Shown here: piece by piece, positions 24,393-53,585 of the stretch
How the letters are laid out: the number at the start of each line of letters is the position of its first letter
How positions within the stretch are numbered: position 1 is the stretch's first letter
Assembly (NCBI RefSeq): GCF_032118995.1
Contig: NC_092652.1
Coordinates: 27,171,339-27,235,338, forward strand
Source of the DNA: Asterias amurensis
Lineage: Eukaryota
Direction: 5' to 3'
Length of the DNA: 64,000 nucleotides
Position numbers and translations under genes: made by a program
The notes under the pieces: model-generated
The model's database searches: none
Told to the model about the DNA's origin: nothing
Seen by the model: only the letters and a program-made list of their open reading frames with translations

Positions 24393-24420
24393 ATTGAATT
24401 GAATTGAATTGAATTGAATT
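24393..24420. repeat. (GAATT)n pentanucleotide microsatellite in a SufS-gene intron
   Basis: 'ttgattgaattgaattgaattgaattgaattt'. Confidence 0.85.
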
Positions 24421-24423
24421 TAC

Positions 24424-28975: not shown

Positions 28976-29041
28976 CTTCAACTTTTGTTGTAAAAGATTC
29001 AGATCGATTTGGCCTCGGTCTGCATCCCTTATTCGGATAAC
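28976..29041 (-). CDS. SufS-like gene exon (VIRIRDADRGQIDLNLLQQKLK)
   Basis: The acceptor is ctcag|GTT and the donor is TTGAAG|gtaaga. It aligns to SufS '[27 protein letters not shown]'. Confidence 0.65.
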
Positions 29042-29453
29042 CTGAGAATACAAAGAAAAAGAACACAATAAAAGCTGTGACGATAGGCTACCAACTCTCG
29101 ATCTCGTTTCCAAGTACAATGCATTTGGTTTATCAAGGACTGTCAACAACAGCCATTTTAAAACCCTGTTCCTGAAGCTGAGAAGTCTACCGAAAATCTA
29201 CTCTGCAGCAGTAGAATTTTAAACGAGACAAGTTCTCAAAGGAACATAGTTATTCTCTAGCAAGTAGTCACACATCGTGTTTTTAAAACAAAAAAAATTC
29301 CGTTTTTGAGGCGTACATTTGTCCTTCCAAATAAGACGATTGTTTCTGTCAAAAATGATTGACTTGTAAAGGTGAAGGCATGAAACGTAGTTTTGTTTTA
29401 GAATTTGAGGTGGACGATTCCATCCGAAACATCAAAGCATAACTTGGTTTTAC

Positions 29454-29519
29454 CTTTGCACCACTCTCCTTCCATGGCAAAATGTTAGAATGATGCTCAT
29501 ACGGACCAACAAAAACAAC
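29454..29519 (-). CDS. SufS-like gene exon (VVFVGPYEHHSNILPWKESGAK)
   Basis: The acceptor is cctgcag|GTT and the donor is GCAAAG|gtaaaa. 'YEHHSNILPW' matches the SufS/CsdA signature 'MEHHANIVPW'. Confidence 0.75.
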
Positions 29520-30714
29520 CTGCAGGAAAATCAAATATTTTCTGTGTCAGTTATAGCTCCTTTAACCATATCTTTACGACTGTTGTCACAAGTTAATGAT
29601 CCCAAAACAGACGTTATAGGTATAACACAAGATTGACAATCATAACAAAAACCTTTATTTTAGTTGTAACAACCGAAACCAGTTGTTGCGCTTAAATTTT
29701 CCGACACAGTTTTCTCGAATATGACTTCATTTGATGTGAAAATATTTCACAGAAAAAAGTGCGAACTTCATAATAAGCGTACTGATCATTAAATTCACTC
29801 TAGAAACGTTTTCCTCTGAGAAAATGTTCAAATGAAATGAAGTCAAATTCGAGAAAACCCTATCTGAAAATCTAAACGCAAGAGCTGAATGCTAAAAATG
29901 GTGCATGTTTTTTCACACATTATTTTGTCCTAACTTCCACAACCCATTAACCAAATGTTCACAGGATTGTTGTTTCATGAGTATGGTTGATCACACAAAA
30001 CATGATCACTGTCAGGAACACTGTATGAAACTAGTTTGTCATCTCTAAATAGCATTCTTGTAGCCTTCAAATTGCATTACAAACTTTAAATTAAAACTGT
30101 TGTGAACCCGATGAGAAACAAAACTAAGATGAAGCAACAACGGGTTCCACTAACAGCTTGTTCACACAAGGAACCAAGCTCATGCACGTGTTTCATTCCT
30201 GACCCACATTAGATCCTCGGGGAGTAATTGTTGTAAACAACTCCTTATAAAAACAAACCAGACTGTCCACAGTTATTGCCATTACCAAAGAGGGCTGGCA
30301 ACTTAAGAACTCATGGTTCAAAGGTCAACGCAGTTTCGCCAAATCAATCTATCGGTGAACACAGGGTAAACTGTACTTTGCAATCTGTCGAGGTTTCAAG
30401 GGACGGACATTTTGCTAGAGTTTCAGGTGGCAAAACCATCTTGTATTTTATTTAATGTACAACCCGCGTGATTTGAATATTAAGTATCCACTATATGCAA
30501 TTGTACACAAGAAACATGGCACATAAATGTAGGCTGCATTGAAGTTTAGGCTTTTATATCTGTGTAAATGCAGAGTAATTTACACAAACGAATATTCATG
30601 TTGGTAATTGGGGTTGTATTTAAAAATACATTTGGCAATGGCCGCCTTTCGAAAATACGGCTTGGGCTCAGTCAGTTATTTAGAAAACGTGTGCGATATC
30701 CTTTTAGGACTTCA

Positions 30715-30845
30715 AACAGAAGGACAGAGCCCAAACCGGTGCCCAAGCCTGAGCCAGAGCCTAAGCCAGAGCCAAAGCCAGAGCCAAAGCCAGAGCCCAA
30801 GTCAGAGTCCAAGCACGAGCCCAAGACGAAGCCCAAGCGATTCAT
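30715..30845. repeat. Imperfect hexanucleotide repeat (GAGCCMAAGCCA)n inside a SufS-gene intron. It encodes the 'PKPEPEPKPEPKPEPK' stretch of a spurious ORF.
   Basis: It can be read directly. Confidence 0.8.
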
Positions 30846-31026
30846 ATGACAGCGTTCTCTCGTACAAGCTCATGTCACCATTTTGTTTTTCGCCAATAAA
30901 AGCCACGTGGCCGGACAAAAGGTTTGAATAAATTGAGACTGGTGCCGCTCATATAAAAAACCGGTATGTAAGGAAGCGAGAGTGTTCTACTAGGAACACG
31001 ACAAACAAAAGCCTGGAATGAATTAC

Positions 31027-31156
31027 CGTTTTCTTAGCTCGATCTCCCTTCAGTTCGAGAGCTGTAATGAGTTTATGTACAGCTCCTGTTGTTCCACTTC
31101 CAGTGAATATAACTACGTCATCATCGGTAGCATTAACACAGCGTTTAATCAGCTCC
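31027..31156 (-). CDS. SufS-like gene exon (ELIKRCVNATDDDVVIFTGSGTTGAVHKLITALELKGDRAKKT)
   Basis: The acceptor is tttcag|GG and the donor is AAAACG|gtaatt. 'DDDVVIFTGSGTTGAVHKL' is the class-V 'E-i-FTsGaTe--N' motif; compare SufS 'EELVFVRGTTEGINLV' and MOCOS 'DYTVIFTAGSTAALKLV'. Confidence 0.7.
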
Positions 31157-31534
31157 CTGAAACAACAGCAACCATTCAGAATACAAAATGGTGGTTTTTA
31201 CAAAGAGCGAGTGATTTATCATGGCTCTACTTACCGTAAAACGTTATGCCTACTATGTGCTTACCGTAGCTACGGTCCATAGAACGATAGAACTAAGCCT
31301 TTTAAAGGTACAAAGTAAGCGCCTATCTGTTCATTTGTTTGTTGTGGTGTTTGCTTGCTTGTTTATTGGAATGATTTTCCAGTCAAACAAACTTAGCAAA
31401 CTCCCACAAGAGGATATAAACGCTAAGCTGGCAACAACCAATCTTTCTCACATAATTATTGGTTTAACCTCTATTTGATTATAAATTGCACAAATCAAGA
31501 AATTGTGATTCAGCCACTATAGGCAACCATATTC

Positions 31535-31645
31535 TATAGTCATTGTGAAATCAGTGCTCAGCTTGGTAGAATTCGAACCCACAACCTTGTGATTGCAAGT
31601 CTAACCACTGAACCATGCGGTGACTCCTCTCCACCATAAGTCAAG
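31535..31645 (-). mobile_element. tRNA-like SINE head (rc: GCATGGTTCAGTGGTTAGAC…GGTTGTGGGTTCGAATTC)
   Basis: It has D-loop-like and T-loop-like boxes, but no intact cloverleaf can be folded. Confidence 0.4.
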
Positions 31646-32435
31646 AGCACTAAAGTGTGTTTGTTTGATGTTTTTCCCGCCCTTTCCTGTCTTTCCACAG
31701 AGCAATCGGTCCTGTGTTATCGTTGCCAACATACGATAATGATTCACCCCTAATATTACCTTTGGCCCACCGGTGCAGACATGATTGCATTATTTACTTT
31801 TAAAATAATAGTAAACATCAAGGTGTGCGAAAACATTTTTGAATACGCAAATCAGGGTAATATTATCGCACTAAACTATAATACAAACAACTCTGGTGCA
31901 TTATAAAAATAATTCTTTGCAAACAACGTCACCGGACCAAGGTTATTTGCTGCATGAAATGTTTAATAAATTTATAAAATGAAGTGACACCAGAATGTGA
32001 CGTTGGTTTTTGCGAATTAAAGATGAGTATCACGTGATAGATATTAAAGTCTTGAGTGACGACGCTAGTTGTTGTATTTGATGCCGGTAGATGGCGCAAC
32101 TTCGACAGGATCGCAGGGACTGTGCAAGTTTACGATTCTCGATCAAAACTAAGGGCCTCTTAGAAACCTCGGCTTATGTTCCAGCTCCGGCTTGAGCTCT
32201 GCCATCTGTTTTGAAGCAGCGTACATTTTGTATGGTGTTGTTCAACATCAAACTAAGCCTGAAGCCTAGCTCAGCCGAGGTTTCGAAAAAAAACTCTCTT
32301 TAATTTTAAGAAAGGTGCTTATTCGATATAGCTATCTGTTCTCCAGTTGCTTATTTCGTGTTGTGATATCGGCAATGCCAACGTCAACGAAGACTATATA
32401 CATATATAATTAATTAACTAATTAAATAAGGGTAC

Positions 32436-32552
32436 CTTGCTTCTTTGCGGAACTGCGTTGTCTGTCGAGACATAAGCCCAGTGGTCGTATGGGTGTTTGC
32501 ATACAAAGGGTGGACGTGGTTTGTGATGTAATCTTCAATAAACTTCACTGGC
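32436..32552 (-). CDS. SufS-like gene exon (PVKFIEDYITNHVHPLYANTHTTTGLMSRQTTQFRKEAR)
   Basis: The acceptor is ctttag|G and the donor is GCAAG|gtaccc. It aligns to the SufS N-terminal helix region '[39 protein letters not shown]', with the GNTHT motif. Confidence 0.65.
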
Positions 32553-35500
32553 CTAAAGAAAAAAAGGAGAACAAAATCAAGTATTAAACCGGGTCAGCCA
32601 AGGGAAAAACGGATTTCGAAACTATCGCAGGCCTTCACGGAAGCAGCGAAGGCGATTGCCTCAACGCCCCCTATTCTGGTGCTCTTGCAAGAACCCAGTA
32701 CAAATTACAATTTCTTCATATAGGGTTCCCTTTACCACGGAGAAATGCCTTGGTGACCTTATAATGTTTTGTTTTTTAGTGATTACTTTTACTAGATTAC
32801 TTTATTTTAAAATAACAGAGGTAAATTGCTACTGAAATATATTAAACCGCGAGAGCCGATAGATGTTGACGGCACCACGCCCAAGACCCGATTGCCCCGA
32901 ATAATGGCAAGATGATCTCTTAAGTTGAGATCAGTCATTGCTTACGTAATAGTCGTTCAAATTGTCAGCCTAGCAAACCTGATGAAACCTGATTAAGGAA
33001 TTTAAAACGCTTCACACAATGCACCACAACAACCTTGTTCTTTCAAATATGAAGCATACAGGCCTGCCATTGTGATGATCGTCCTAGAAAATACTAACCC
33101 CAAAGTCAAAAAAATATATGAACCGTGGCACCCTCGTTGCCTAGGGGGAAAGAGACAGTTTTAAGGAACCAATTTGTCAAAAACGGTGAATCTCTTTTCA
33201 CTGCGCGCCAATATATTTTGTAGAGAAATTTGTAACAATTAAAACTAACTATAATGGAGATTATCAAACGTCAGGCTAAAATATATGATTTATAGAGTCA
33301 CTTCAAATGCATACATCAAGTTTAACATTGTGTGACCTTAGAGCTATACAAATTCATGGTGTGTGACTTAGTTTTAGCATTCCTCCATAATATAAGTTTG
33401 TGAACTGAATGAGAAAATAGGGTTTGCTGTTGCAACCTGCTTAGCAACCAAAATGACAAATGGTAGAAATGCAACAGTTGTTTAATGGCGTGACAAACTT
33501 TCATTTAGCCCATATGAAAACTTCTGCTATGATAACAGCGATTTTGTACTTAGAGGCTTTTCAGAATTTGGCCCATGGCCGGTATATTGACTTTAGCTCA
33601 GCATTAGCAGATTACAGTCTACGGTGCTGACATTTTGAGTTTATTTAAACGATTATCATGAGCTGGTTTGAATGTCCACAAGTTGTTGTAAAATCACTCC
33701 ACACTCAACGTGCTTAGTTTTAAAGATTCGCTGCAGAATTGTGCTATTAATAAAAATCAATTCGAATAGGTTTCCTTCATACAGTATGTTCTCGATTGCA
33801 TGAATTGTGCTATAAACAATACAATAATTAACGTAAAAGCACAGAACACAAATTACAATCATGAAAACAGAAAAATAGAACAAGTATTAACTCAAAGAAG
33901 AATCCGAACACCTACAAATCACAATCAGAGTAACAACCTCCCGTAACCCCCTACCCCCCCCCAAAAAAAAACCCTACCCGAAACAAAACAACAACAAAAC
34001 CCCAACAAACAAACTCAAACAAATCAAACCAAACATCCAACACCCAAACCATAGAGAAAGTATTCTTTATGCCCAGAACCCCAACAAAAAAACAAACAAA
34101 CAAACAAAAACTTACAATACCTACGACGTTTCCTTTGTTTCTCTTAATTGAAGGGCAATCTTTTTGTAAAAGCCCGAGGGAGAAACAAGTTGCGTTTCAG
34201 TCTGAAATCCTAACTCCTTCTGACCCACTTTATCCATCGCTTGAGCTCTCAAGGAATGTGAAATATTTCAGCACATCTATAAATCCAACAATAAATCGGC
34301 AAACAGCCGTCGATTTCACCAAACTCTTCTAAACTTAAGATTAATCTTTGGACTTAGGACGAGTCCCAACCCTGCACTACAGCATGCAGACCTTAAGATT
34401 GTTCCTAAGTTAGGACGAGTCAATAAAAGCTCGTATAGGCATTCATGCTGGGTTTTTTCTCTCCAAAAGAAGACTGTTTCAAAAAGACTGGTATCGCAAA
34501 AGCCTCCCAAGAGGTCATCGACAATCAAGACACATCCGTTGACTTAAATCATGTCTCGAATGCTCCCTGGTGGTCGATAAGACCTTAACTATACCACAAT
34601 ATCACAAATTTAACATCTAGTATACCACAATGCCATCTTCAACTTCCTCAGCGTTTATAAGAAGTAGATCCGAATAGATATTGCAACCCCCCCGTTCAAT
34701 CCCCTCCCCTTTCAACCCCCACCCAGGAACTACTTAATGCACTCAGTCAGGGTACTCAGTCAGGGTACTCAGTCAGGGTAATCCGTCAAGTTTTTAATAC
34801 TTTTCACAGCAGACCTATCACAGGTGGTGACTGTTTTTGAAGTTTGCTGCAGGTATTGCATAATCTCCACCACTTAGTAGCCATCTAGACAATCTCAACC
34901 CACTTGTCATAGTTCTAGAAGATGGTTGAACCATCTTGAACTGACTTCTATTTAATACAATAAAGATCAGTGCGAAATACCTGCCATTAGAGGCGCTTGA
35001 CGCGGGTACAATCCTTAAATGACGAGTCGCTAACTACAGACCACCTCAATGTAGGAGATGACAGTGAAGTGGAACTAAGAGGGTTCCGTTATCCATCCTC
35101 ATCCTTTATTCCCTTCCCCCATGTTTACGTCAAGTAGATCCAGCAACAATTAATGTTCTTTGTTGGTCAATTTGAAGTTAAACTGGTGCTCCTCAATGGA
35201 TGCATATTCCATTACAACCGAAACTCGAGGCTGAATGAAGAATAACTCCAAAGTTTCAACTGATCAGAATACAGCAGATAATGTCCATTGCAGGTGCTAG
35301 TATTACGTAACCCTAACCCTCCCCCTCCCCCACCCCCTCATGTTCCCACAAGGTCAATTTCCACCGTCTTGAAGATGTTTGCCCTGGGAATCAAACCAGT
35401 TGACCAACGCCAATGCAACAATCCCATGACGTCATCTAAACCACATGATTGCGATACCATTTTCAGCTATAGTTCACAAGTAAGTTATTGCTGACGTCAC

Positions 35501-36263
35501 ATGGTTTACTGACAGTGACGTACATGTAGCTGTAGTTACTTCAGCAGAGGGGCGTGGTTAATAATCTAGGAGGGGTAACATTGATGCTCTACTGTAACTG
35601 TTCAACACAATAGAGTTTTAATAATTGGCACACTACTGGTTGACTGCAATGGTGACGCATCTGAAACATAAACCCTAAATTGTTGAAGTTCTAAAAACAT
35701 GTCCGGATGTTTGGTACCATAATATTTCAGTCAAGCGTCAAGCTACACAGTGATGAATTGCACCAAACTATTTAAATTGATGTTTCCGTTTGTAGACACT
35801 TGAGTTTTGTTCCCAATGTTGTTATGGCACATTGAAAAGTATTGCTTCATCCTACACTAAAGTATGGCAATAATTTAAATACAAAATATATACTACTTCT
35901 TCTTTCAACAAGTTTAAAACGACAGAAAGACGCCTTTAGTTCATCCAGGAATCCATCAATGATCTTACGAACACAGTGATTTACAATCATTCAGTTTATA
36001 CTTTAGAAGGACTGTAACAACAACACAGTTCCAGAAATATGAAGAGAAGTTTCTCCCTCTTCAGTCCGGTGGCGAAAAATGCGCCGCGGTGGTCAAAACA
36101 AGTTTACGCCAACCATCTTGATCTGCTGCTGATCTTGATGCAGCTGCCATACGCTGTCCAGTCCAATTCTTTATGTCATTCATCCAAGATGATGCTGGAC
36201 GATCTCTCCTTTTTAAAAAGTTGCAGTTATTATTTAATTTAAGGAGTCCGTAGAGGAACTTAC

Positions 36264-36294
36264 CTTCCTGAGGCGGTGTAATCACAGTAAACCA
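36264..36294 (-). CDS. SufS-like gene, 31-nt micro-exon (V VYCDYTASG R)
   Basis: The acceptor is tatttcag|TGG and the donor is GGAAG|gtaagt. The exon is needed to restore the phase between exon 1 (+1) and exon 3, which requires +2. It encodes the conserved substrate/PLP-site region 'Y-D-y-TASG' that immediately precedes 'PVKFIEDYI'. Confidence 0.55.
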
Positions 36295-39200
36295 CTGAAA
36301 TAGAGACAGAAAAAGACATTTATTTGGTTGTTACATCAGTAGAAACTAAAGTTGATGTAGAAGTCTAAATATTACCAGGAGTTTACCAACGTCATATTCA
36401 TATAGGATATATGACTAAAAGGCATTGGGCAGGCGTAGCTAGGGTGTCTGGTGCCCGTGGTTGAGGTAAGATGACGGTGCACTTTCACCCACTTTGTCTT
36501 TGAAACTCTCAGCAAGTCTTACCAACACCCACCGCTTTCAAATAATCTTTGTTTTTTAATAACTTGAAAAAAGACATTGGTCGGTTTAACCATGTAGGTA
36601 GATGCATGGTTTAACGGCCAATGGGCTCACACGCGTCACATGTCCTCCCCACCCCCATAAGCCACGGTGTATTACAGGACGTGTTCACCCATGTGTTCCT
36701 CTTCATTGCATTTATTCTATCATTTAGGTCTGATAACAGACTGAAGTGTTCCTATATTTTTAGCGAGCTTTCCTAAACACGGAGACTGCGGTCACACCAA
36801 TACGACATTCATTCAAATTACATCATATGAGGAAATTATATTAGAAAGACAAATGAACGCTCATAATTGAATGAACTTAATGAAAATGCTGTCTATTGAC
36901 AAATGTGATAGTTGAAAAGTTGATTTATTTGTCACTTTATTTTTTAATTGTAAACAATATGTTTTTATTCCAACTATAGTGTAACCATGGTCAGGTAGCA
37001 AAAACCCTTTCCCTCTCTTTCATCCCATGATATTCCACTTATTGCTTCAACAGATTGCCATAAAACTCATCTCTCATCGGATATTCAAATATGACCCACT
37101 CAACAATGTCTCTTGACACTATGGAAAATATAGATTTCTGTTCACACCTGCGTAAGTTAAAGTAAATACAGGCGGCATAAGGCCAGCCGAGTCTACGCTC
37201 AATGGGCCATTGCAAAAGTTGGCTTAAAAACCGTCCCCCGCAAACCCCCCGCTAAGTTCACTGCACAAAGGCGCAAAAATTAACCCCCACGATGCAAAAA
37301 ATGTTTGCCTTAGCATGTCCCCCTTTTGAATTTCATCACCTTGCCTTATCTAGGTTAGAATTATTTTCTTTTTTAAATAAATAGATTTTTCTTGTCAGTA
37401 TCACGCGATTAAGTGTGGTCATGCACATCTTACATTTAAAACATCTCTATCCGGGTGTGAACTTCCTTTCACAATACAAATTTTGATTGATCAACAACCA
37501 AACCCCTTTCCCCCGCGTTTTCTGAATGACAGAGGCGCGCCCAAAGATCTGCACTTTCATGATTGCAATCGTGATGTCAACTTATTTTATGAATTGTTAA
37601 CGACAAAGGGTAGGGCCTAGGTCTGCCGTATCTTGTTCAAGGAAGACTTTGTCAATTTGTTTTCCCATGGGATCAATGAGAAGTTATTTTAAAGCGATAA
37701 GACTCTTTATTTGGTAATCACACTTTAAAATCATTGGCAATAAAAGCTTACTTAGAAGTAGGCATAGATCAGTTTTCGATAGAATAAAGCATTTTGATAT
37801 TAATTTCACTTCGAAGTATTAAAATGTGCTTATGGAAACATTTATCAGTTTTTATGCCCCCAAATTTGTGTGTATTCCAATTACAGAGTATTCTTCCTGC
37901 TCCGGATTTTCGACAATTTCTCAAAAACGTTACCAACTTTTGAGATGAAATTTTCTCAGGTTAGTTGTTTTGTGTAATATCTAACATTTTTATAGGATTA
38001 AACAATCGAACGGCCCAAAAACCAAAGGGGTGTGTGTGTCCTTTTAACATAATCCGTCCATGATTTGGAACAATCTCCCTCCTGCGCCATTAGGGAATCT
38101 GATACCCTATCTGCTTTTCGTAAAGTCCTTAAGACTCACCCTTTTCCCACTTAATTTCTTTCTATAGTGCGCTATGAATAGCGCCTTATAAATTTTAATT
38201 GTTATGTTATGTTATAATAATAGCCTCTTTTCAGTCGGATAATAGTTTATCGACACTTTATTTGAGCAGGCAAGGGAAACAAGATGGTACAAAGTATCCC
38301 AACAACATGAAACTTTGTAAAAGATAGTCATCACCACTTTTTTGGACGACACTTTGCTTTCCTCGATAAACTTATAGTGTAAATCAAGTTCAATACACGA
38401 ACGTTCATAGGCCCATGTAGCTAAACTTGACACTTTCGACCACAACTTTTCCTGGTTAACCAGTTTCCTATATTCCTGGGACAAACTTGTACTGTCTTTG
38501 CGTTGGAAAGTGTAGAATAGAACTGACAGTGACAGTGAATTAGAGGTTACAACTTACAACATACCAATCCGGTACGTCATCGTGTGAGGTCAAGGGTCAT
38601 TTGTTCCAAGGCTGTGGGCAAATCTTTACTTATTCTGCATGTACTAACCATTGGACTAAGACATTGGGATTGGAATGTCACTAACTGTGCCCAATTTCAA
38701 GATCATTGCTCTGCTTTCTGTTGGCTTATGAGCTTACTACGGACCAGTGTGCTTTACATGGCACCGTAAGCGCAGAATTTCACGGTAGGCACGGAACCAT
38801 GAAATTGAGCCCTTGAGCTTAAATCCCTCGTTAGTAGGCCAATCACTTCTCGTGTTTGTTTTAGCCTACATACCATATCCTGTGTGATTGTGCTTCCTTG
38901 AAGTTCGACAATGGTAGGACATTTTCAGTTTTAGTTAAAGACCAGCATTTTTTTAACCTATGTAACCCAACATATACATTCCTTACAACAAATAACAAAC
39001 CTGTGGAAGTTGAAGACCAGTTAATGAGTCACCAACAAAATAACAACCTGTGAAAGTTTAAACACAGTTAATGAGTCACCAGAAGTGAAAATTACCTCAA
39101 TGACTCATTGTGTTCAAGAAATAGGGATTATGTTCAACACTGAACTTAGCTGGACTAGTTTTTTTTTTTTTTACTGGTTCTTTGGTGTTCCAACTGACAT

Positions 39201-41829
39201 TATTAGGTCAGCGGGCTATGCAGTGTTTATGGAGAATGTATGATCATAAGATTGGGTTATGTGGGCTAGCTTTACCTCACTTATAATGTCAGTATGTCGT
39301 ACAAGAAACACTTACATGGGACATGGGGTTCCCCTCATGGCTCATATTGCCGTGTTTTGCTTACAGAAGGAAGTTGTTTTTGTTGCCTACTTTCTGGCTA
39401 CGTGCGTTTTCAACAATGTAAAAATAATGTAGACCGTAATAAATGTACATCGTGCCATGGTCCCAGTGACTGGCCGATTGGCTAGATAAGCCTTGGGCTG
39501 CAACCACTGAACCAATACCCGGTAATGTCAGGGCAAAGCAAGATTACGTTCATTCCGGTAGACCGAGGTAGAACCGGCTCTGCAAAGCTAGAGTACATTA
39601 TAAGGTCATATCGGTACAAGGATATCGGTATGGAATTGCACGGCGAGTGCCTAGCTCTATGGTGAGTGTAGGCCTACAATCAATTCCAATGAACTTGACC
39701 GGTCATGTCCCCTTGGTACACGCCAAGTCCACAACCATAATTGTAACTGGTCAAGGGCATGGACGAGGAATGTTATCTTGAATTGATTACCAATACCGAG
39801 TCTTTTACTTAGTTTGTTTCTTTAATTTCCTCAATGCTTAGATCAATGTTGTCTGTAGTGTTAGATCAATGTTGTCTGTAGTGTTGTCCCTTCCTCTTAT
39901 CGCTGCGGTGTTTTGTTGTGGGTATAGTTTTTTGTTTTCAATAGTCTGATTTTGCTTGTGTTTTAATGATTTCTATTCTGTGATTCTTAAATGTTTCAGT
40001 GCAATCACCTTTTTATATTGTATAATTATATTTTTATCGTTGGCAGGGGTCTGGTTTTACACATCTTTTGATGACAGTTTTATACTTTTGTTTTAGCCTT
40101 GACAGCCCCTGTACAACTTGCAACTATTGTGTATGTCTAAAGATTTAAAATAAATAAATAAATAAAATCGAAAGCCTCGTTTACCAGCGGCTTTGTATTG
40201 TTTAATACACACCTGTACTTGGACACCCCTATGTTCCGACTTACTATACGACGCACCTAGTGTATTTTCCTATCCCTAACCATAATCTTACCATCATAAA
40301 CCCTACTACCAAGTAAACTACGATTTTTTTTTCTTCGGAGGGGTGTCGGAACATAATATTATAGGGGTGTCGGAATATCAAACAGTTACCATTATAAGAG
40401 GTCCAACAACTGGATATTAACGAAATGAGTGTTTGGACAAAAATTTCAAAATACTTTTTTTTCTAGTACATCATAGAACTTAGGGTCTGTGAACCTTGAT
40501 GTAATCAACACGTTTGTCGTCTGTGCGGCACCTAAATGTTTAAGTTGACTCGGATACCATTTACTTCCGTTGTTGTAAAAACTAAAAAGGACTCGACCAC
40601 TGGGCTGAGTGGTCAATGTCGTTCCACGTTTATTTAATCTCGGTATAATCTTCTTCGTCAAGAAGTTTCTGCTTTTATATAAGATGTCCGTGAAGATCAA
40701 GCGAGGAGGATGGTGGCGATGAGTATTAATTTTAGGAGTTGTATAATTGGTTTTAAGACTCTCTATATAAAATCAAAAACTCTCGGGAAAAAAAATCACC
40801 ACTAAAAGGTAAAAGCTCGCTTAATTTTAAAGCTCAACAAAAGTATTTAGTCTGAATGCAGAAATTAGGTTTGGAAGAAATATGGATCCATGGAACAAAA
40901 GTTTGGTGAAATCATTGGCCATTAATTAAAAAAACACTGTCAAATTCCCCTATTGAAAGAAACATGCGATGTTTGACCTTTTGTGGTGTTTATTTTTGGT
41001 ATGGTTTGAAATAAAGGAGGCGGAAAGAACAAAACAAACAAACAAACAAACAAACCTACCATCAGTGAAAAACTTACAACTTTTAAAAGTAAAAAAAAAA
41101 TGTATGTTAGGCCTAATTACATTTTTGTCGCACCCTGCAAGCTTGGGAACCAAATTTGTAACTTAAAAAAAACCAATTTGACTAAATGTTTCACTCAAAC
41201 TAAGTTTTCCTTTAAATAAAAAAATAAATAAATAAAGGTGATGCATTTCAAGTTTTATTTACGATTTTTTTTAAATTATTATAACAAAAACTCAGCAAAA
41301 TTAATTTTTTTTCACGCTTTTCCAGACTGGCGCCAAAAATACAATAAGATCCATTCCTGCGGAGACAGTTTTCAAGGTTGGGAAACCGTGCATCATTCCA
41401 TGCCAATACAACTCCATTTTGAATCCAAGAACATCCAGACTACATTTTGCTCCAAATGTGTCTTATGAAAGTGTATATATCCAGCTTGGGCTGTAGGCTG
41501 TTTAGAGTCACGCGTTAAAAACACATTTTCATTAATTTGTAGTGTGCTCCAAAACCAGACACAGACGAGAAATTGTTTTACAAAAGTGTGTTAAGGGCTA
41601 GCAGTTCAGTTTTGACGAACGCAACAAGGGCAGGCAACGAAAAGTTTTACAAGAGCCGTAATTGTATTTTACAAGGTTTGACGCGAATTGAACATAAGCA
41701 ATACAAGTTATACAATTAAGTTACAACATTCTACAAGATAATGCTGGAAAAAAATGTTCCATTTGAGACGAGTGAAAAAACAATCAATCAATAGAACCCT
41801 TTTTATAAAAAATCAACAATAACTAAAAA

Positions 41830-41905
41830 AAGGGGATTCGAACCACCCCATGCTAGCTCTAGAATTGCACAAGTCGTGGGTTCGAGTCCCACATGAGTAA
41901 TGACT
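41830..41905 (+). mobile_element. tRNA-like fragment with a perfect T-arm (GTGGGTTCGAGTCCCAC), probably a SINE head
   Basis: 'ggggattcgaaccaccc…gtcgtgggttcgagtcccacatgag'. Confidence 0.35.
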
Positions 41906-42148
41906 GTGATTGTTTTCCACAGAGGTCGGGAATGTACTGAGTATACAGTGCTGATACACATCGGTGTATATCTTTGTCCCGATACATATTTTTATTTATC
42001 AATAATAAAAACCTATCAACAGAACCTGTTGTTAAACCACGATTGATATTTAAAAAAAACAAAATACAAAAAAAACGAACACATTTTTTAAAATGATATT
42101 AAACAATGAAATTATGAAAGCAATATTTTAATTAGTAAAATAAATTAC

Positions 42149-42512
42149 CTTGCTTCTCTCCGAATGGTCCTGGGAAACAGGTATCTTTACCCACGATGTT
42201 CTCCTCCACGTAGCGTAGGATTTGATGTCGCTCATCCTCCTCATCTTTCTTATCTCCATCTCCAGCGACAGTAACTCCTGATAAGTTAGTGATGGTAATC
42301 ATTGGTCGGTCATCCAGCTCAAAGCGACACTCCTTCGGTGAAACAGGCGGTGAGAAATGAACAGCACCTTGGCTTCCAGGCTCAAGCTCAAACCGGCATT
42401 GCTTGGGAGAAACTGGGGTGACTGGGGAACCACTGTCGTCCGGCTCACTGCTGCATTCCACGGTAGGCACTTCTGGTGTTGCTGAGGCACCCTTGTCAAC
42501 TGTCGTAGCCAT
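42149..42512 (-). CDS. SufS/CsdA-like class-V PLP enzyme gene, first coding exon. It reads MATTVDKG…HQILRYVEENIVGKDTCFPGPFGEKQ, with the ATG at 42510-42512 and the donor CAAG|gtaatt leaving +1 nt.
   Basis: A 121-codon ORF from an ATG, ending at a canonical gtaat donor. The N-terminal 95 aa are S/P/E-rich, with two tandem repeats 'VSPKQCRFELEPG…VSPKECRFELDD'. The final 'F.GPFG' segment leads directly into the conserved 'VVYCDYTASGR' of the next exon. Confidence 0.6.
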
Positions 42513-44684
42513 TGGGTTTGCTTGAGGTTCCTAACTTTAAACGTGATGAAAAACTCGACACAGTGAGTGGTGTCGGTGATTTGAGCTATTGTTTTCCAGG
42601 AGAACTCAGTAGTAGAAGATCGTTGGTTGGCTGGTACGTGTTATAGTAGTGTAGGCCTACTTGGCTGGTACGTGGTATAGCAGTGTAGGCCTACTGGTCA
42701 GTGCTTCAGGGGAACCCACTTACCCAACTTTACTCCCTACATGAAGGTTGGACCTAAACACATGCAATAGTCCTCGATTCTTGGTGGTGCTTCAAAACAC
42801 TATTGTCAGTACACAACGGAGTACCCTCTTGATAACAAACGACAATACGTATTCGCAGATTAGAGGTGGTTTGTTAACTGGTTTATAGTCAAGCGATTGC
42901 CGTGGTATGCTGGCTAACACCACTACTGCTCTGGCTGTATACTTGAATGAACGGGACGCAGGGTATGCTGACGGTGTTGCTCTGTTGGCCTTCACGCTGT
43001 AAAGCTGGTTCCCTTTATGGGCTTTGGGTTTAACCACAGGTGGAACTTGCCTTCTGGTATGTTTGATGTTGTGATAGACGGATTACATGCAGTTTGTTTA
43101 TGTGGTAATGTTTTTATAGTTATCACAGTTGTGTGTTGATACTAGACGGTGGTGAGGAATTGTTCTCTGAACACGATGACGCTATCACAATGCTGATCCA
43201 TGACCCACTGGCCACTCTTCAAATTCCACAAGGTTCAATCATGGAGTATGAATAAACTTCGATGAATCAAGTGAGAGTTCAATTGTGTTTTATTGCTGGT
43301 GTGAAAGAGACAAACTTTCCAACCGATTGAGTCCGTGGGTGTATCTGGTCATCTACCTCCATGATCTGTTACACATTGTACCCATATTTGTACCTATTGA
43401 CACAGAAAACTTTCCGCAAACTATTGTGCCCCAAAGATTTATAAAAAATATGGAAAAGATCGAAGTTAGTATGTTCATGTTCCTATCATGAGGGTAGAAA
43501 TGTTCCTACCAGTTACTACTTTTGATGTTGATTTTATATCCGAGTAGAATAAGGATTATGAATTCAATAACGGAAGGTGTTCTTAATCTGTAAGGCCAAG
43601 GTAAAGTCACGACCGGGCGGCGGGGTCTCTTGTAGTGGTCAACACACCCTGAAGGGGGCACTAAGCGCCCCATGACCGACTCCATGTGTTTTAAAGCAGG
43701 CTTCAGAAACACCACGTTGGGGTGGGGCAGGGGATTTTGTCTGAAGTTTGCGAAATTTCTCAAACAACTTTTGATAATACTCTGGACCTTTTTTCAAACA
43801 CAAGGTTGACGAGATAACTCTTAGATTAGCGTGTAGAGAAAACATATTACTCAGCTGAAAATACCCTTTTCAATTTACTAAAAACGCTGTAGTCCTACTC
43901 AACATAATGGACTCAACACAATTTTCTTTTACGAATGATCTTTGTGTTAATATTGTCCTTTATATTCATAGTCTCATAGTTTAATAGGGATAAGCCTCTC
44001 TTAAAACAAATAGTGTGGTGAAGTGATAATCATGGTCGCCTCCTGTCTTTTGATGTGGTTGGTGTAGTGGAATTTGAGTGCAGCTAGTTTGCCATATTAA
44101 CACACAAAAATCAATTAACCAAAACAACCCTTATTGACCAAAATAACAAAAGCTTACCAATGCGTAATGGATCGAGTTACGATCTTGGACAATACAATAA
44201 CTATATCTAGCGGAGGCCGTCCAGGGAAAGGACAAAGTATATTTTTAAATGTCGAAAAAAAAATACGCACTCCCAGACCTTGCTAATTTAAAAGAGACGG
44301 CAAAATTGAAAGCAACAAGAAAAAGTAGCGGTGCTTGGGGGGGGGGGGGGGGTAGGGGGCAAGTTGTTTGTCCCCTGCCCCTTGATTAATGCCCTCACTT
44401 TCCCAGTCAATTTAGCTAGTTCCCTGATGGCCAGAATTAAATTGAACCCCAAACCACATTAATGTAATTATGATCACGTTCCTCCAGCTACAGAGAAACC
44501 TTGCTGTAAATCTGTCATTGGTTGGTCAGCCAATGTTTTTTGAGCAGGACAAAATGGCATTCGCCCCAAAGAAATTTAAGCTTGACCTCAACCCCTAGAC
44601 CATGCCTAGACTGACAGGCCTGAAGTCGATTTCACCAAGATAGTCCGATTTAGGAACAGTCCTATTCGACGCAGTCCTATAAAA

Positions 44685-45242
44685 GCACTGGACAACACTA
44701 TTGGTTATTAAGCACTGGACAACACTATTGGTTATTAAGCACTGGACAACACTATTGGTTATTAAGCACTGGACAACACTATTGGTTATTAAGCACTGGA
44801 CAACACTATTGGTTATTAAGCACTGGACAACACTATTGGTTATTAAGCACTGGACAACACTATTGGTTATTAAGCACTGGACAACACTATTGGTTATTAA
44901 GCACTGGAAAACACTATCGGTTATTACTATAAAAACATTTTAGCTTACAAACTTACTCGGTAAAGATCAATGTAGAGCTGTATAAAACTTTGTGAGAAAG
45001 AAGTAATTTTTCACTAAAATATTTTAATATAATTCCAGACCTCAGCTGAGGTCTCGAATTCACGCATCTGAAAGCACATAGCTTGTGCAACAAGGGTGGT
45101 TTTTTTTCATCCATTGTTCTCTCGCAACTTCGATGACCAACCGAGTTCAAGTTTTCACATGTTTGGTATTTTATGCATGTTGAGATACACCAAGTGAGAA
45201 GACTGGTCTTTGACATTAACCAAAGGTTCCCAGTGCCTTTAA
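44685..45242 (+). mobile_element. MITE family A copy whose 5' TIR region has been amplified into a 27-bp tandem array (44685-44930, about 9 units of 'GCACTGGACAACACTATTGGTTATTAA'). The normal MITE body and 3' TIR follow, ending '…ccaaaggttcccagtgccttt'.
   Basis: The tandem unit is a diverged copy of the family-A terminus 'AGGCAGTGGACACTATTGGTAATTAC'. The body from 44940 to 45242 matches the family interior, including 'cagacctcagctgaggtctcgaatt'. Confidence 0.7.
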
Positions 45243-46241
45243 GGCTAGTCCTAAGTTAGGACGAGTAACTTGTCCGAACTGGATATAAGTTTAGTTTTAA
45301 CTCTTTGTGAAACCCATCCCTGGTATCGCCGTACAAAAGATATTCTAGTCTTTGTACAATTGGGACACAAATATTGTCTGCTCATGGAGGCTAGGCTGGG
45401 TTTGGGGGCTGTTTTTGGAACCTGGTTTTGGAGTTGGCCATTGAAGTTGGGCATGGATTGAGTAAAGTGAATGGACAATCTAACTACAAAGTTGATCTAT
45501 ACAAAGCGAGCCAGGTTAATAGTATTTACACATTCATATTTCAACCTTGAGCTCTACATCTCTATCCACTACGGATGCAAATGTGTCCGAGCGGACACAA
45601 TTGCATTATGCAGCAGCGTCCGGGCGGACCCGATTGCATATGCAAAACCGTCCGGCAGACATTATTGCATATGCAATAACGTTCTCCGGATAGTATTGCA
45701 TAGAGGACATAAACTGTATGCGACACCAGACTGTGTGTACGGTAGTGATAATACCTTTTCAAGGGTTATGACTTAGGAAGTCCACGGAGATGACCCTGGG
45801 TTGGAGGGTGATGACTTTTAGTGTTGCTTTGTGTGTATTTTAAATCATTTCTAAAAGTCGAATAAATCAACGGTACGATTATAACAAACACTGACAATCA
45901 GTTTATATTCTTTCGGAGTCTGTTTGTGATATGAATTTTGAGTTGAATTGAGCGAGGTTACCTACATCATTAGAGACATTTTGAAAGGCAACTCAGAAAT
46001 TGTCATCCAAGTTTGTATCTGAAGAAAAGACAAATCTTTAAGATGGAAACATCTCATAAAGACGTTTGTCTATATAGCTGTAATAAGATGTGGTCGTTTT
46101 TGTTTATTTTATTATAGCAGTCTATCATTACAATAAAAATACGTCACACATTTATTTCAATGCCTTGATGTTTGTAAAACAAAGAACACTCAGAGGGTTT
46201 TGAAACTTTGCTCGACAGGAAAACAAGACTCTTTGGCAACA

Positions 46242-46538: not shown

Positions 46539-47763
46539 GGTGGTTCTGTCTCTTAAAGTTTGCGGCAACATCAAAACTAAAGATATCGGATATAGTTGTG
46601 GTGTTTTTTTTTACTTTTTGAAACGAAATCCATGGTTTAACCACGACGTTTCAACCAGCATTTTGGTCAATATGGTGGCATAGTGTGGTGCTTTCCATAG
46701 CATTCAAAGCATGGTTTCTATGCATATCAGTTTCTAATAAACTAAGGACAGATCCTCCAATATTTCAGGCGAGGTTTACACACCCTTTTACGTTTTTTGG
46801 AAAAGCCGTCCACCGCATGACTGCAATAATATTTGACCCTTTTGATTGACAGCCAACCCGGATGTCTGGAGTGCGGTACTTGACTGAATTATTGCGGGTA
46901 CACATAGTGTCCTAAGCCCACAGGTCAAGGGGCCAAGACACTTCACACACCCTTCTGCCTTTAATACTCTATGCTTCTCTCTAGCTATATCACCCTAGAA
47001 CTCCAAGACGCGTTTACACTGGATCCAGAAAAGTGGAGGGCTAACTGGGATTTTAAATATTTAATCGCCCCGTGTAAATTTCTGGAGTATAAATACAACA
47101 AAGGTTTTGAGAACACAGTACACTTATGTCATTGGATGAGTAAACAAAAGCAGGAGTTTGTACATGATAACGAGATTATGTCACGAGGATAAGATCGCCC
47201 CCAGGGGGAGTAGAGAACCTCAGGTGCACCAATGTGTGGTCAGGGGGTATATTCAATGGGGTCGAGGGGGGGGGGGGGGGGGACTTGAGACTGATTAATA
47301 TCCGAAATAATGGAGCAGATTTCTGTTCAGACCATGGCACGGGGTAGATTGATTAGATAGTAGATTTTATGGGTTGACCTTTTGGTTTTTTTTTTTTCGG
47401 GGGGGGGGGGATTTGAGACCTTTTATTGCAGTATCCGAAAGGAAATATTGGAGCAGAATTCGAGTGCTCAGTAAGGGCCATTCAGATTATTCAATGCTAC
47501 AAAATTTCGAACTATTTTCGAAAATGTTTCGATCTTGACACAATGAATGGCTTCATAATAATTAGGATCCCCCAGCTAACCGCTGATTTCACAATGACAA
47601 GAATAATTATTGTCATCTAGTTACTGAATCACAATTTCTTGATTTGTGTAATTCATAATCATAGACGTTAAACCAATGTTTGTGAGAGAGATTGGTTGTT
47701 GCCAGCTTGGTGTTTATATCCCTTGTGGGAGTTTGCCGAGTTCCCTTGATGGGAAGATCATCT

Positions 47764-47958
47764 AAACAAACAAACAAACAAACAAACAAACAAACAAACA
47801 AACAAACAAACAAACAAACAAACAAACAAACAAACAAACAAACAAACAAACAAACAAACAAACAAACAAACAAACAAACAAACAAACAAACAAACAAACA
47901 AACAAACAAACAAAAAACAAACAAACAAACAAACAAACAAACACACAAACAAACAAAC
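47764..47958. repeat. (CAAA)n / (CAAACAAA)n microsatellite, about 195 bp
   Basis: It can be read directly. It explains the overlapping 'QTNKQTNK' and 'VCLFVCLF' ORFs. Confidence 0.95.
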
Positions 47959-49139: not shown

Positions 49140-49690
49140 TGGGGTACTTGAGAGCACGGAGCAGGACAATCTGTTTCCCTTCCCCAAATTTTGAGAGTGA
49201 GTATAGTAACAAGCGAAATAATAGAGTAGAATTCAAGTGTTTCCAGTGTGGTCAGTTTAGGGTCAGACCACGGGGTAGATTGGGGTGAGGTACTTGAGAG
49301 CATGAAGGTCCTTCTTCCCCCCGTCTTCCTTTTTTAAGAGTGAGTATTATAAGATTCGCAATAATAGAATAGAATTCAAGCGCTCCCAGTGTGGTCAATT
49401 TAGGGTCAGACCACGGGGTAGATTGGGGCTGGGGTACTTGAAAGCATCAAGGTCCTTCTTTCCTCCGTCTTCCTTTTTTGAGAGTATTATAAGATTCGCA
49501 ATAATAGAGTAGAATTCAAGCGCTCCCAGTGTGGTCAATTTAGGGTCAGACCACGGGGTAGATTAGGGTGAGGTACTTGAGAGCATTTTCCTTCCTTCTT
49601 CCTCTATTTCGAGACTAAGTATTATAAGATTCGCAATAATAGAATAGAACTCAAGTGCTTCCATGGGGTCCGTTTACTATACAATACAAT
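49140..49690. repeat. Tandem repeat with a roughly 120-125-bp unit, about 4.5 copies. The unit contains 'GTATTATAAGATTCGCAATAATAGARTAGAATTCAAGYGCTCCCAGTGTGGTCAATTTAGGGTCAGACCACGGGGTAGATTGGGG'.
   Basis: Successive units can be read directly and are about 90% identical. Confidence 0.8.
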
Positions 49691-49944
49691 CCCCAAAAGG
49701 GTCAGATCCGTGGGGTAGATTCGAATGGGTGGGAAGGGGCTGGGGACTTGTGGCTGATATTAATAACAATCAAAGCACTGGAGTAAGTATAGAATCAACA
49801 ACTTAATTATATCCTCAAGGTACTGGGTAGCCCAGGTTGGACTCCTCTGTTGCACTGACTGACGTCCTACCAGGGCTAGGTACTGGGTAGTGTTGTTTAA
49901 TGTGATACTGTTATAATGGGATGACCACAGTAAAGATTATCTAG

Positions 49945-50086
49945 ACACACCAAGGTTGAGACAACTGTGGGCTCATTAAGACACACCAAGGTTGAGACAA
50001 CTGTGGGCTCATTAAGACACACCAAGGTTGAGACAACTGTGGGCTCATTAAGACACACCAAGGTTGAGACAACTGTGGGCTCATTT
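49945..50086. repeat. Tandem repeat with a 36-bp unit 'ACACACCAAGGTTGAGACAACTGTGGGCTCATTAAG', 4 copies
   Basis: It can be read directly and the copies are perfect. Confidence 0.9.
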
Positions 50087-51629
50087 TAAATACCTGCAGA
50101 CCAAGGACTTAACAAGGGAAAAGAAAAGGTCTAAAAATGGAATGTCTAAAGACAAGGGTGCTCTACAAGGAAGTATTCGAGAAACTGTTAAGTGCAGAGA
50201 CAAAGGAAAGAACAAAAGAATGCACCACAAGGATACATTTATAAAAACAAAATTCTGCCCCTTTTTTCGCTGGTTCGTAAAAATGGCCAAGAAAGGGTAA
50301 ACAATTAAAAACTTATAAACATCAACTGGAGATTTGGGCTTGAAGTTTAACACAAAATCAAATCTTTAAAAAACGTAAATATTCTGAAAAATTATAGTCC
50401 TGTTTATTTGTTGTTTTCTGGTGAGGAATATAAGCGGGTCTTAGAGATTTTATAAGTGTTTATCAAACTATACAATTTGTAGTTACCCTTCCTAGATACT
50501 TTAAGGTATTCTACTTTAAGGAAACTAACTGTCAATTTGATACAAATCTTATTTATTTTAAATTGACAAATAAGTTCATTCATTAATTATTTCCATACTG
50601 GCTTATTGTGACACTGTGTACATCAACAAAGTTTGGATGACATTTGCTGTTTTGCAGATTTGTTAGATAATTGACAAATAACGATTTACCTGAAGTAAAA
50701 CCCTAAAACCATCACTTCTATAGCGTTTAACCCAAATGCTGCAACTCAAATATTGAGATGATTATTGGTGACATTGATTCTTTTGGTTTTGATCAAGTGA
50801 AAGGGATAGCATCATCCCACAAATTGAGACTTGCTTTCTTCAAGAGAAGTTGGAGGCTCAATGAGGTTTTAAGAAAATCCAGTAATCATGAAAGATCCTA
50901 AGAAATCACATTTCTACAAGACTCAGATAACACTGACCAGTTTCTTCAATCCTTGATTCGAGATTGATGAGAAATAAGAAACTGTTACTCTACACTGAGG
51001 AAGTACCTACTGAGAGATGTTGGCTCTGAATAAGAGTGGTTGATTTAATCTTATTGTTTCATCCAAGGTGTGTTCGTTTCATCTAAGATGTTATAGTCAT
51101 CAGCAGGAGAAAACAAAGCACACTAGTCAATGCAGCAAGCTCTTCTTCATGTAACTGTTAACACGCAGATCAGAGAGAAGGGGGGGGGGGGGGGGGCGAG
51201 GGGGAGCCACTTCACTCAGAACCGTTTTCCCTAGCCCCCAGTAACTAAATTGGAAACAGTTCTAGTATCCTCCTTACTCTCCAAAACAAAACAGGCTGGT
51301 ACCCGTGACTTTGTTACCTGCGTTCCATTAAGCTACATGTCTTGCATTCGTGGAACAAGTCCAAACAACTCTATCTTTGTATGAGACTTGTCCAATGAGA
51401 TGAATATCCGAGGAAAGACTCTTCACATCTCGATTGATTTGTTGTCAATATTTAACGTCAAACACTCATCAACAATTCAGCTTCTCTTCGTTTACTCTCC
51501 TGCAGAAATAAGAATCAAAGACCATTTCTATTTTAATTGAGCAACGATAAAAACTAAAAGAAAACAAAACCCATACAACACAGTTCATTACTGTGACATC
51601 CCATCACCCAGTTATTAAACCTCTTCCAG

Positions 51630-53082
<1,453 letters not shown>

Positions 53083-53585
53083 TATCAAAGTCTTATATAG
53101 CGCACGTATCTACCAAACAAGGTACTCAAGGCGCTGAGTATATACAAACTTCCAGAAAGGTTCCAATGCACACAAGTCAAACTATCACAGGCCTGTATGC
53201 TTTATTTCTGAAAGGGCAAGGGCACCAAGGCATTTTCTCATTGCTAAAGGGCACCCTATGAGGAAAGTGTAAAGTTCGACTGGAGCATTTCAAGGGCATC
53301 AAGGAAATGACCAGGGGGCATGGAGACAATCGCCTTCCTTGCCTCCGTGAAGTAACAGGCCTGCTGGAAATAAATTGTTATACTCTTGAACACCTTGTAT
53401 GCTGTAACCCCAAAAAATTATTACATAGAATACACTATCTTGATAGGTTTTTAAAGTACTGATTATTAAGAATTGTAGCACAACAAGATAGGTGTCCACA
53501 ACTGACGTAAAGTATTTTTTTAATAGCGATCCTAATTAGTGATCTTAGGATAAAATAGAATCCAATTAACACTTCTTAAAATCAC

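What the first reader, a model, noticed from the sequence alone, without database searches (positions are those of the whole stretch)
44685..45242. Satellite birth from a transposon terminus: the MITE-A 5' TIR amplified into a 9-unit 27-bp tandem array
A perfect tandem array of 'GCACTGGACAACACTATTGGTTATTAA' runs from 44685 to 44930 and continues directly into a normal MITE-A body and 3' TIR at 44931-45242. The unit is a diverged copy of the family-A terminus. This is a snapshot of TIR-derived satellite formation, by replication slippage or aborted-transposition repair. It superficially resembles a repeat array, but there are no spacers.
Basis: seen in the sequence. Interest (0 to 1): 0.5.

Follow-up and report, generated by a model that had tools for sequence, protein, structure and literature searches.

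The report
Transposon end amplified into a minisatellite
In this starfish (Asterias amurensis) genome segment, the first 27 bases of one old miniature transposon copy have been copied head-to-tail nine times; this is real, but it is a small, single-locus example of a well-documented way that transposon ends seed tandem repeats.

Summary
A 27-bp unit occurs 9 times head-to-tail with no spacers: 8 identical copies plus a body-proximal copy with 2-3 changes. Periodicity runs 44683-44926. The array leads straight into the body and 3' inverted repeat of a ~378-bp MITE that has about 15 copies or fragments in the window. The unit is the first 24 nt of that MITE (22/24 identical to the terminal consensus) plus an ACA triplet duplication. 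The window is Asterias amurensis. An empty orthologous site in A. rubens proves a TTAA target duplication and AG...CT element ends, which fits a Kolobok/T2-like MITE better than piggyBac. It also shows the family moved after the two species split. The best reading is a locus-specific minisatellite formed in place in an old MITE copy, with recent growth in copy number. "Satellite birth" is overstated. Only one 243-bp array was seen, no second copy of its junction turned up anywhere searched, and the mechanism is untested. Tandem arrays derived from transposon ends are already known (Xmix/Xstir in Xenopus, Tetris TIR-220 in Drosophila). A related MITE in another echinoderm contig carries a 49-bp x 26 array from its 3' end, so this may recur. 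The decisive test could not be run: unit number at the A. rubens orthologous site and in long reads.

The parts
44679..44682 (+). Degenerate 5' target-site duplication (ATAA, expected TTAA)
   Evidence: All other copies are flanked by TTAA or TTTAA. The empty site in A. rubens shows a single TTAA. The focal 3' side has an intact TTAA.
44683..44898 (+). Each is the first 24 nt of the MITE plus an ACA triplet duplication.
   Evidence: exact matches; alignment to the terminal consensus.
44899..44925 (+). Ninth, body-proximal unit (AAGCACTGGAAAACACTATCGGTTATT) with two derived substitutions (44909 C>A, 44918 T>C). It is contiguous with the MITE body.
   Evidence: The consensus has C and T at these positions, and ACAACA is the perfect triplet duplication.
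44926..45212 (+). MITE body. It is diverged (87% to consensus at aligned sites, about 50 gap columns) and includes an 18-bp perfect palindrome at 45037-45054, where the consensus has a stem-loop.
45213..45238 (+). 3' terminal inverted repeat (reverse complement AGGCACTGGGAACCTTTGGTTAATGT), present once and not amplified
   Evidence: The termini pair in the DNA fold (z -2.2).
45239..45242 (+). 3' target-site duplication TTAA

Best explanation
This is a locus-specific minisatellite that arose in place inside an old copy of a TTAA-targeting, AG-terminated (Kolobok/T2-like) MITE of Asterias amurensis. The 27-bp block that starts at the first or second base of the element, which is the whole 5' TIR, was duplicated once in tandem with at most 1 bp of junction microhomology. 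That points to an end-joining or template-switch type event at the element boundary. Copy number then grew by replication slippage or unequal sister-chromatid exchange. One variant was recently amplified or homogenised to eight identical copies, while the edge unit next to the body escaped and kept two private substitutions. Shown: the structure, its derivation from the terminus, the TTAA/AG...CT element boundaries, the age cohort of the copy, and the absence of other amplified termini. Inferred: the order of events and the molecular mechanism. There is no evidence that the array has a function or that it has spread.
For: Array anatomy. The unit is the terminus plus an ACA duplication shared by all nine units, so the triplet change preceded the duplication. 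Family definition: about 15 copies or fragments, TIRs and TTAA flanks. The empty site in A. rubens, GAGACTC-TTAA-CCAAAAG, versus the filled site in the window at 7822-8199 fixes the element ends and the TSD. The focal copy belongs to the older cohort: 87% to consensus, against 91-94% for young copies that include the post-speciation insertion. Yet 216 bp of array carry no differences, while neutral divergence between the two Asterias species is 5.1%. So the expansion is much younger than the insertion. Only the 5' end is amplified and the 3' TIR is single, which argues for a local accident rather than a family design. Periodicity starts exactly at 44683 and ends at 44926, leaving 1 bp of ambiguity. 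Other tandem duplications occur inside MITE copies at non-terminal or differently bounded positions: 47 bp x2 at 38986-39081 in a degenerate copy, and 49 bp x25.6 from the 3' end of a related MITE in L001. Minisatellite copy number turns over quickly between the two species: the 86/87-bp array has 2.1 copies in the window and at least 8.8 in A. rubens. Literature: TIR-derived tandem repeats and expansion by unequal crossing-over are documented (PMC9659126, PMC4079207).
Against: No reads, second individual or orthologous site could be examined, so neither the copy number nor the in-place origin is directly verified. The array DNA has no unusual hairpin propensity that would favour slippage (z +0.9). 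The left edge coincides with the transposase cleavage site, with roughly a 4% chance for a random block overlapping the TIR. This hints at an end-specific trigger rather than generic slippage. The argument that the first duplication is old rests on only two substitutions.
Confidence: 0.72

Rival explanations
1. The first duplication was triggered at the element end. In one version, the cognate transposase cut the 5' end (TTAA|AG) without completing excision, and the break was repaired by short synthesis plus end joining. In the other, replication stalled at the base of the TIR-TIR hairpin. Either gives a tandem block that starts exactly at the element's first base. Later growth is as in the main explanation.
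For: The periodic block starts at element base 1 or 2. Junction microhomology is at most 1 bp, as expected for end joining. TTAA-targeting elements were active in this lineage after the split from A. rubens. The MITE termini pair in the single-strand fold.
Against: The boundary coincidence is a post hoc observation with about a 4% chance. The focal copy is old and its terminal AG is mutated to AA, so it is a poor transposase substrate today. In L001 the amplified block runs 8 bp beyond the element end. The 47-bp duplication at 38986-39081 is internal. So amplification in this MITE lineage does not require an end break.
Confidence: 0.15
2. The array rides on the transposon. A subfamily master copy already carried a multi-unit 5' end, and this locus is one of several insertions of it, as Xstir repeats ride on Xmix MITEs in Xenopus.
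For: There is precedent in another TTAA/AGG-terminated MITE family (PMC6004289, PMC9659126). The outermost unit sits next to the target duplication, so the whole array could in principle be mobilised. The ACA-containing TIR variant was not seen in any other copy in the window, so the focal copy's immediate relatives are unsampled.
Against: No second array or junction was found in the 64-kb window, in 22.7 kb of A. rubens, or in the other loci and collections searched. The eight units are identical while the body is 13% diverged from consensus, so the array is younger than the copy. The terminal AG is degenerate.
Confidence: 0.07
3. Assembly artefact: the unit number is inflated or invented by mis-assembly.
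For: Nothing positive. It simply cannot be excluded without reads.
Against: The array is only 243 bp. The same window carries a 1,455-bp (ATA)n tract and other arrays assembled through, which implies long reads that easily span it. The divergent edge unit and clean unique flanks are typical of real arrays.
Confidence: 0.04
4. A functional repeat, for example a cluster of protein-binding sites acting on the SufS-like gene 2.2 kb downstream, or a spacer-type array.
For: The array lies 2.2 kb upstream of exon 1 (42132-42512, minus strand) of an aminotransferase class V gene. TIR repeats can carry extra transposase-binding sites in other elements (PMC4079207).
Against: There are no spacers. The frame that is open across the array is a by-product of the 27-bp period. 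There is no Rfam match and no structure signal. No conservation data are available.
Confidence: 0.02

Closest known systems
Xmix (T2-A1 MITE) and its Xstir tandem repeats in Xenopus (Hikosaka & Kawahara 2004, as summarised in PMC6004289 and PMC9659126)
   Same: Both are short non-autonomous elements with a TTAA target and an AGG-type terminus, presumed to be Kolobok-mobilised. In both, a segment assigned to the TIR region is tandemly amplified inside the MITE.
   Different: Xstir is a large, genome-wide repeat family carried by many Xmix copies. Here there is one array at one locus, made of the outermost 27 bp, with no evidence of spread. The starfish terminus is AGGCA, not the strict AGGRR.
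Tetris foldback transposon / TIR-220 satellite of Drosophila virilis, and Galileo TIR repeats (PMC4079207)
   Same: The tandem repeats derive from part of the terminal inverted repeat. Copy number changes by unequal exchange, and this is proposed as the first stage of satellite formation.
   Different: Tetris units are ~220 bp, lie internal to the outermost TIR domain, are present in both arms, and also form kb-sized arrays elsewhere. The starfish array is 27 bp, includes the very first base of the element, and sits on one arm only.
MITE-associated satellites of bivalves (pearl/CvA-HindIII, BIV160) and other TE-derived minisatellites (reviews PMC9659126, PMC6947457, PMC12628747)
   Same: The general route is the same: a segment of a non-autonomous DNA transposon becomes the monomer of a tandem array in a marine invertebrate genome.
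   Different: Those monomers are usually internal segments of 100 bp or more, and the arrays are dispersed over many loci.
Ordinary VNTR-type minisatellite
   Same: Period of 27 bp, 9 copies, homogeneous core units with a divergent edge unit, in an intergenic position.
   Different: Its monomer can be traced to an identifiable source, a transposon terminus, with a boundary at the element's first base.

Membership tests
Tandem repeat / minisatellite | Head-to-tail copies of a 10-100 bp unit without spacers | tested here: met
   TRF period 27, 9.0 copies, 99% matches; exact back-to-back matches.
Satellite DNA | Long arrays and/or many loci of the same monomer in the genome | tested here: not met
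   One 243-bp array. No other copy of the unit or junction in the window, the A. rubens locus, or the other loci and collections searched. The whole genome was not available.
MITE | Short (<600 bp), non-coding, terminal inverted repeats, target-site duplication, many dispersed copies | tested here: met
   ~378-bp consensus, ~24-26-nt TIRs, TTAA flanks, about 15 copies or fragments in 64 kb; empty site in A. rubens.
Kolobok / T2-MITE type | TTAA target-site duplication | tested here: met
   Filled versus empty orthologous site: TTAA-[element]-TTAA in the window, single TTAA in A. rubens.
Kolobok / T2-MITE type | Terminal AG (Kolobok) / AGGRR (T2-MITE) motif (PMC6004289) | tested here: inconclusive
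   The termini are AGGCA(G/C)TGG. AG and AGG are met, but the fourth base is C, not R. A second, nested MITE family at 14575-14953 has AGGAA and does fit AGGRR.
Kolobok / T2-MITE type | Mobilised by a Kolobok transposase with matching termini | not testable with these tools
piggyBac-type MITE | TTAA target plus CCC...GGG termini (own knowledge of the family) | tested here: not met
   The TTAA target is met, but the termini are AGG...CCT, not CCC...GGG.
Foldback / Tetris-like element | Both long TIR arms built from tandem repeats | tested here: not met
   Only the 5' end is repeated. The 3' TIR is single.
Spacer-containing repeat array (CRISPR-like) | Direct repeats separated by unique spacers | tested here: not met
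   The units abut with no spacer. The host is a eukaryote.

The most novel reading that the evidence does not exclude
Amplification of the ends is a recurrent, end-triggered property of TTAA/AGG-terminated (Kolobok-type) MITEs, seen in frogs (Xmix/Xstir) and now in sea stars. Under this reading, transposase nicking or hairpin stalling at the element boundary seeds a tandem block. Array-bearing copies can then transpose, making these MITEs a regular source of new minisatellites and satellites in echinoderm genomes. The focal 27-bp array and the 49-bp x 26 array at the 3' end of a related MITE in contig L001 would be two independent instances.
Probability: 0.12. Interest if true: 0.5.

Novelty: new member of a known kind. 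Interest (0 to 1): 0.25.

Why it matters
This is a clean, small example of the first steps from a transposon end to a tandem array. The source sequence, block boundaries and relative timing can all be read off. The lineage (Asterias) has a sister-species genome for comparison, and its TTAA-targeting MITEs were demonstrably mobile recently. If arrays at MITE ends prove common in sea-star genomes, the system could be used to ask whether end cleavage or hairpin stalling seeds such arrays. On its own, the locus adds an instance rather than a principle, and nothing suggests it matters to the organism.

Tried and rejected
(1) Fetching the orthologous A. rubens site failed. The neighbouring SufS-like gene (753 aa in A. 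rubens) never came back as a protein id. I queried exon 1 and concatenated exons and ran an exhaustive representative search. The MFSD6-based locus L004 stops about 22 kb short.
(2) I looked for independent assemblies through exact ORF look-ups around the array. The 87-aa, 80-aa and 126-aa ORFs are not on record. The A. amurensis MFSD6 protein itself is not on record either.
(3) I scanned public collections for the unit junction and got 0 hits in metagenome, viral and prokaryote contigs. A family-level pattern found only two ~1-kb marine metagenome contigs, neither with an array.
(4) A literature search for the terminal sequence returned only unrelated primers. There is no paper on Asterias MITEs.
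(5) Rfam gave no match in the window.
(6) A hairpin-driven slippage signal in the array was not found.
(7) I tested whether the other arrays in the window derive from the MITE. The 36-bp x4, 31-bp x3, 34-bp, 86-bp and 140-bp arrays have no colinear MITE context, and their weak unit-level scores are treated as chance. Only the 47-bp x2 array is MITE-derived.
(8) The family was not detected at the syntenic loci of Patiria miniata or Acanthaster planci.
(9) The CRISPR-like and coding readings were rejected: there are no spacers, and the open frame is a by-product of the period.
(10) One fuzzy-regex scan timed out and was replaced by blastn-short.

Full report
**What is there.** Reading 44300-45700 and running Tandem Repeats Finder shows a 27-bp period from 44683 to 44926: 9.0 copies, 99% matches, score 474. 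A ninth copy at 44901-44927 differs at three positions. Dinucleotide shuffles of the window give no match at all. There are no spacers. The last unit is not perfect. The array ends at 44926/7 rather than 44930. The element ends at 45238, followed by TTAA at 45239-45242.

**The dispersed family.** BLAST of the region and of a consensus against the window finds about 15 copies or fragments of a ~378-bp element. An alignment of ten copies (A1) gives AGGCAGTGGACACTATTGGTAATTAC...CAATTACCAATAGTGTCCAGTGCCT. The terminal inverted repeats are ~24-26 nt, and TTAA or TTTAA sits on both sides. About 22 recognisable termini are present in the window, and only the focal one is repeated. The 524-aa MFS open reading frame at 10209-11783 is 100% identical to the MFSD6-like protein of Asterias amurensis, so the window is sea-star DNA.

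**Comparison with A. rubens.** The A. rubens ortholog gave a 22.7-kb syntenic locus, L004. It aligns to window ~1,300-21,900 with 5.1% substitution divergence in non-coding DNA. At the position of the window's copy 7822-8199, A. rubens has the empty site GAGACTC-TTAA-CCAAAAG. The window has TTAA-[AG...CT]-TTAA. This fixes the target-site duplication as TTAA and the element's first and last bases. It also shows mobility after the two species split.

**A second TTAA-targeting element.** A 379-bp, largely self-complementary MITE with AGGAACACGTTGCC termini is nested at 14575-14953. It too is missing from a single TTAA in A. rubens. A TTAA target with AG/AGG termini is the signature given for Kolobok transposons and T2-MITEs in Xenopus (PMC6004289). 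piggyBac-type CCC...GGG ends (my own knowledge) are not present. I therefore call the family Kolobok/T2-like. Two caveats apply: AGGCA does not fit the strict AGGRR motif, and no transposase could be examined.

**How the unit relates to the element.** Written from the element's first base, the unit is AAGCACTGG-ACA-ACACTATTGGTTATT. This is the first 24 nt of the element (21-22/24 identical to the two terminal consensus variants) plus a tandem duplication of the triplet ACA. All nine units share that triplet change, so it predates the 27-bp duplication. The similarity is significant against shuffles. Periodicity begins exactly at 44683, which is the first base after the degenerate target duplication ATAA. 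It ends at 44926, so the duplicated block started at element base 1 or 2, and the junction shows at most 1 bp of microhomology. The ninth unit's two internal differences (44909 C>A, 44918 T>C) are both derived relative to the family consensus and to the perfect ACAACA duplication. The unit next to the body has therefore diverged since the first duplication, while the other eight are identical.

**Timing.** With gaps set aside, the focal copy is 87% identical to the consensus. That is similar to the other old copies (82-85%). It is lower than the young cohort (91-94%), which includes the insertion that post-dates the A. rubens split. The copy is therefore probably older than that split. In contrast, 216 bp of array carry no substitution, against 5.1% neutral divergence between the species. 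The last expansion or homogenisation is thus recent, within roughly the later half of the time since the split on a simple Poisson argument. The divergent edge unit hints that the initial duplication is older, but that rests on two substitutions only. Rapid copy-number change of minisatellites between the two species can be seen directly. The 86/87-bp array has 2.1 copies in the window (21682-21861) and at least 8.8 in A. rubens, where it runs off the end of the locus (L004 21963-22729).

**Mechanism.** The best-supported account is a local tandem duplication of the terminal block in an already inserted MITE, followed by growth through slippage or unequal sister exchange. The edge unit would have escaped homogenisation. 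The 3' TIR is single, so this is not a designed foldback-type architecture. The array DNA has no excess hairpin potential, so structure-driven slippage within the array is not indicated. The whole MITE does fold with its termini paired. The coincidence of the block's left edge with the element's first base, together with the near absence of microhomology, fits an end-associated trigger. That trigger could be transposase cleavage repaired by short synthesis and end joining, or fork stalling at the base of the TIR hairpin. However, this is a post hoc coincidence with about a 4% chance. The copy's terminal AG is mutated to AA. Two other cases are not bounded by the element end. One is a 47-bp x2 duplication inside a degenerate copy at 38917-39244. 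The other is in contig L001, from another echinoderm in an ENA metagenome. There, a 49-bp x 25.6 array (1897-3171) has a unit that aligns to the last 27 nt of the consensus (22/27; 6 of 1000 shuffles reach the score). A colinear, diverged MITE body precedes it (z about 5), and the unit runs 8 bp beyond the element end. These cases suggest that tandem amplification of parts of this MITE lineage recurs, but is not tied to one breakpoint.

**What could not be done.** The decisive comparison is unit number at the A. rubens orthologous site and in long reads or other individuals. It was out of reach. The adjacent aminotransferase gene never returned a protein id. ORF look-ups found nothing. Collection scans for the junction were empty. 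An assembly artefact cannot be formally excluded. It is unlikely for a 243-bp array in an assembly that spans a 1.45-kb (ATA)n tract.

**Comparison with what is known.** Reviews list TIRs among the transposon parts most often turned into tandem repeats (PMC9659126). The closest cases are Xmix/Xstir in Xenopus, a TTAA/AGG-terminated T2-MITE with an amplified segment forming a large repeat family (PMC6004289, PMC9659126), and Tetris TIR-220 in Drosophila virilis, where allelic 3- versus 4-unit copies document unequal exchange (PMC4079207). The present locus works like the earliest stage of those systems. It does not meet the definition of a satellite, because it is a single short array. It is not a foldback element, and it is not a spacer array. 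I found no paper on Asterias MITEs.

**Verdict.** This is a real TIR-derived minisatellite in an old Kolobok/T2-like MITE copy of Asterias amurensis. It is a new member of a known kind and of low to moderate interest (0.25). The most novel reading still open is recurrent, end-triggered and possibly mobile amplification in this MITE class. I give that about 12%.

Noticed in passing
window 7822-8199 (minus strand copy); L004 about 7660-7675: A full-length MITE-A copy (94% to consensus) is present in A. amurensis but absent from the orthologous A. rubens site, which has a single TTAA. This is a post-speciation insertion (or precise excision) and proves the TTAA duplication.
   Followed up: yes
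window 14575-14953 (TTAA at 14571-14574 and 14954-14957); L004 about 15170-15185: A second TTAA-targeting MITE (379 bp, termini AGGAACACGTTGCC, 82% self-complementary over its whole length) is nested inside a MITE-A copy. The A. rubens copy is uninterrupted, with a single TTAA. Its terminus fits the T2-MITE AGGRR motif.
   Followed up: partly
L001 1897-3171 (ENA ERZ26222911 contig ctg1015726, unknown echinoderm): A 49-bp x 25.6 tandem array whose unit aligns to the last 27 nt of the MITE-A consensus. It is preceded by a colinear, diverged MITE body, so it is a probable second case of a MITE terminus turned into an array.
   Followed up: partly
window 38917-39244, duplication at 38986-39081: A degenerate minus-strand MITE-A copy carries a 47-bp x 2 tandem duplication of an internal body segment (88% between copies).
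   Followed up: partly
window 21682-21861; L004 21963-22729: An 86/87-bp minisatellite built of ~21-bp sub-repeats has 2.1 copies in A. amurensis and at least 8.8 in A. rubens, where the array runs off the end of the locus. This is a large copy-number difference between sister species.
   Followed up: partly
window 45585-45702: About three 31-bp units lie 350 bp downstream of the MITE. Each contains two short palindromes (GTCCGnnCGGAC and TTGCATATGCAA). Their origin and meaning are unknown.
   Followed up: no
window 49189-49670 and 49943-50085: A 140-bp x 3.5 array (85% matches) is followed by a perfect 36-bp x 4 array. Neither has dispersed copies in the window or a convincing MITE context.
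   Followed up: partly
window 51630-53084, 47764-47958, and G-runs at 44337-44352, 47266-47282, 51180-51204: A very long (ATA)485 microsatellite (1,455 bp, 99% pure), an (AAAC)49 tract and several 16-25-nt G-runs.
   Followed up: no
window 23354-42512 minus strand (exons e.g. 42132-42512, 29349-29534, 28174-28458, 26492-26629, 25088-25321, 24382-24534, 23354-23491): A class V aminotransferase (SufS-like) gene with a sea-star-specific N-terminal exon. Its synteny with the MFSD6-like gene is conserved in A. rubens, Patiria miniata and Acanthaster planci. No sea-star protein for this gene was returned by the protein searches, although gene calls of 734-753 aa exist in those assemblies.
   Followed up: partly
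L002 614-981 and L003 1-221 (JGI marine metagenome contigs Ga0209309_10187519, Ga0115548_1083625): Near-consensus MITE-A copies (93% and 81%) occur in ~1-kb marine metagenome contigs. These are presumably sea-star DNA in environmental samples.
   Followed up: partly
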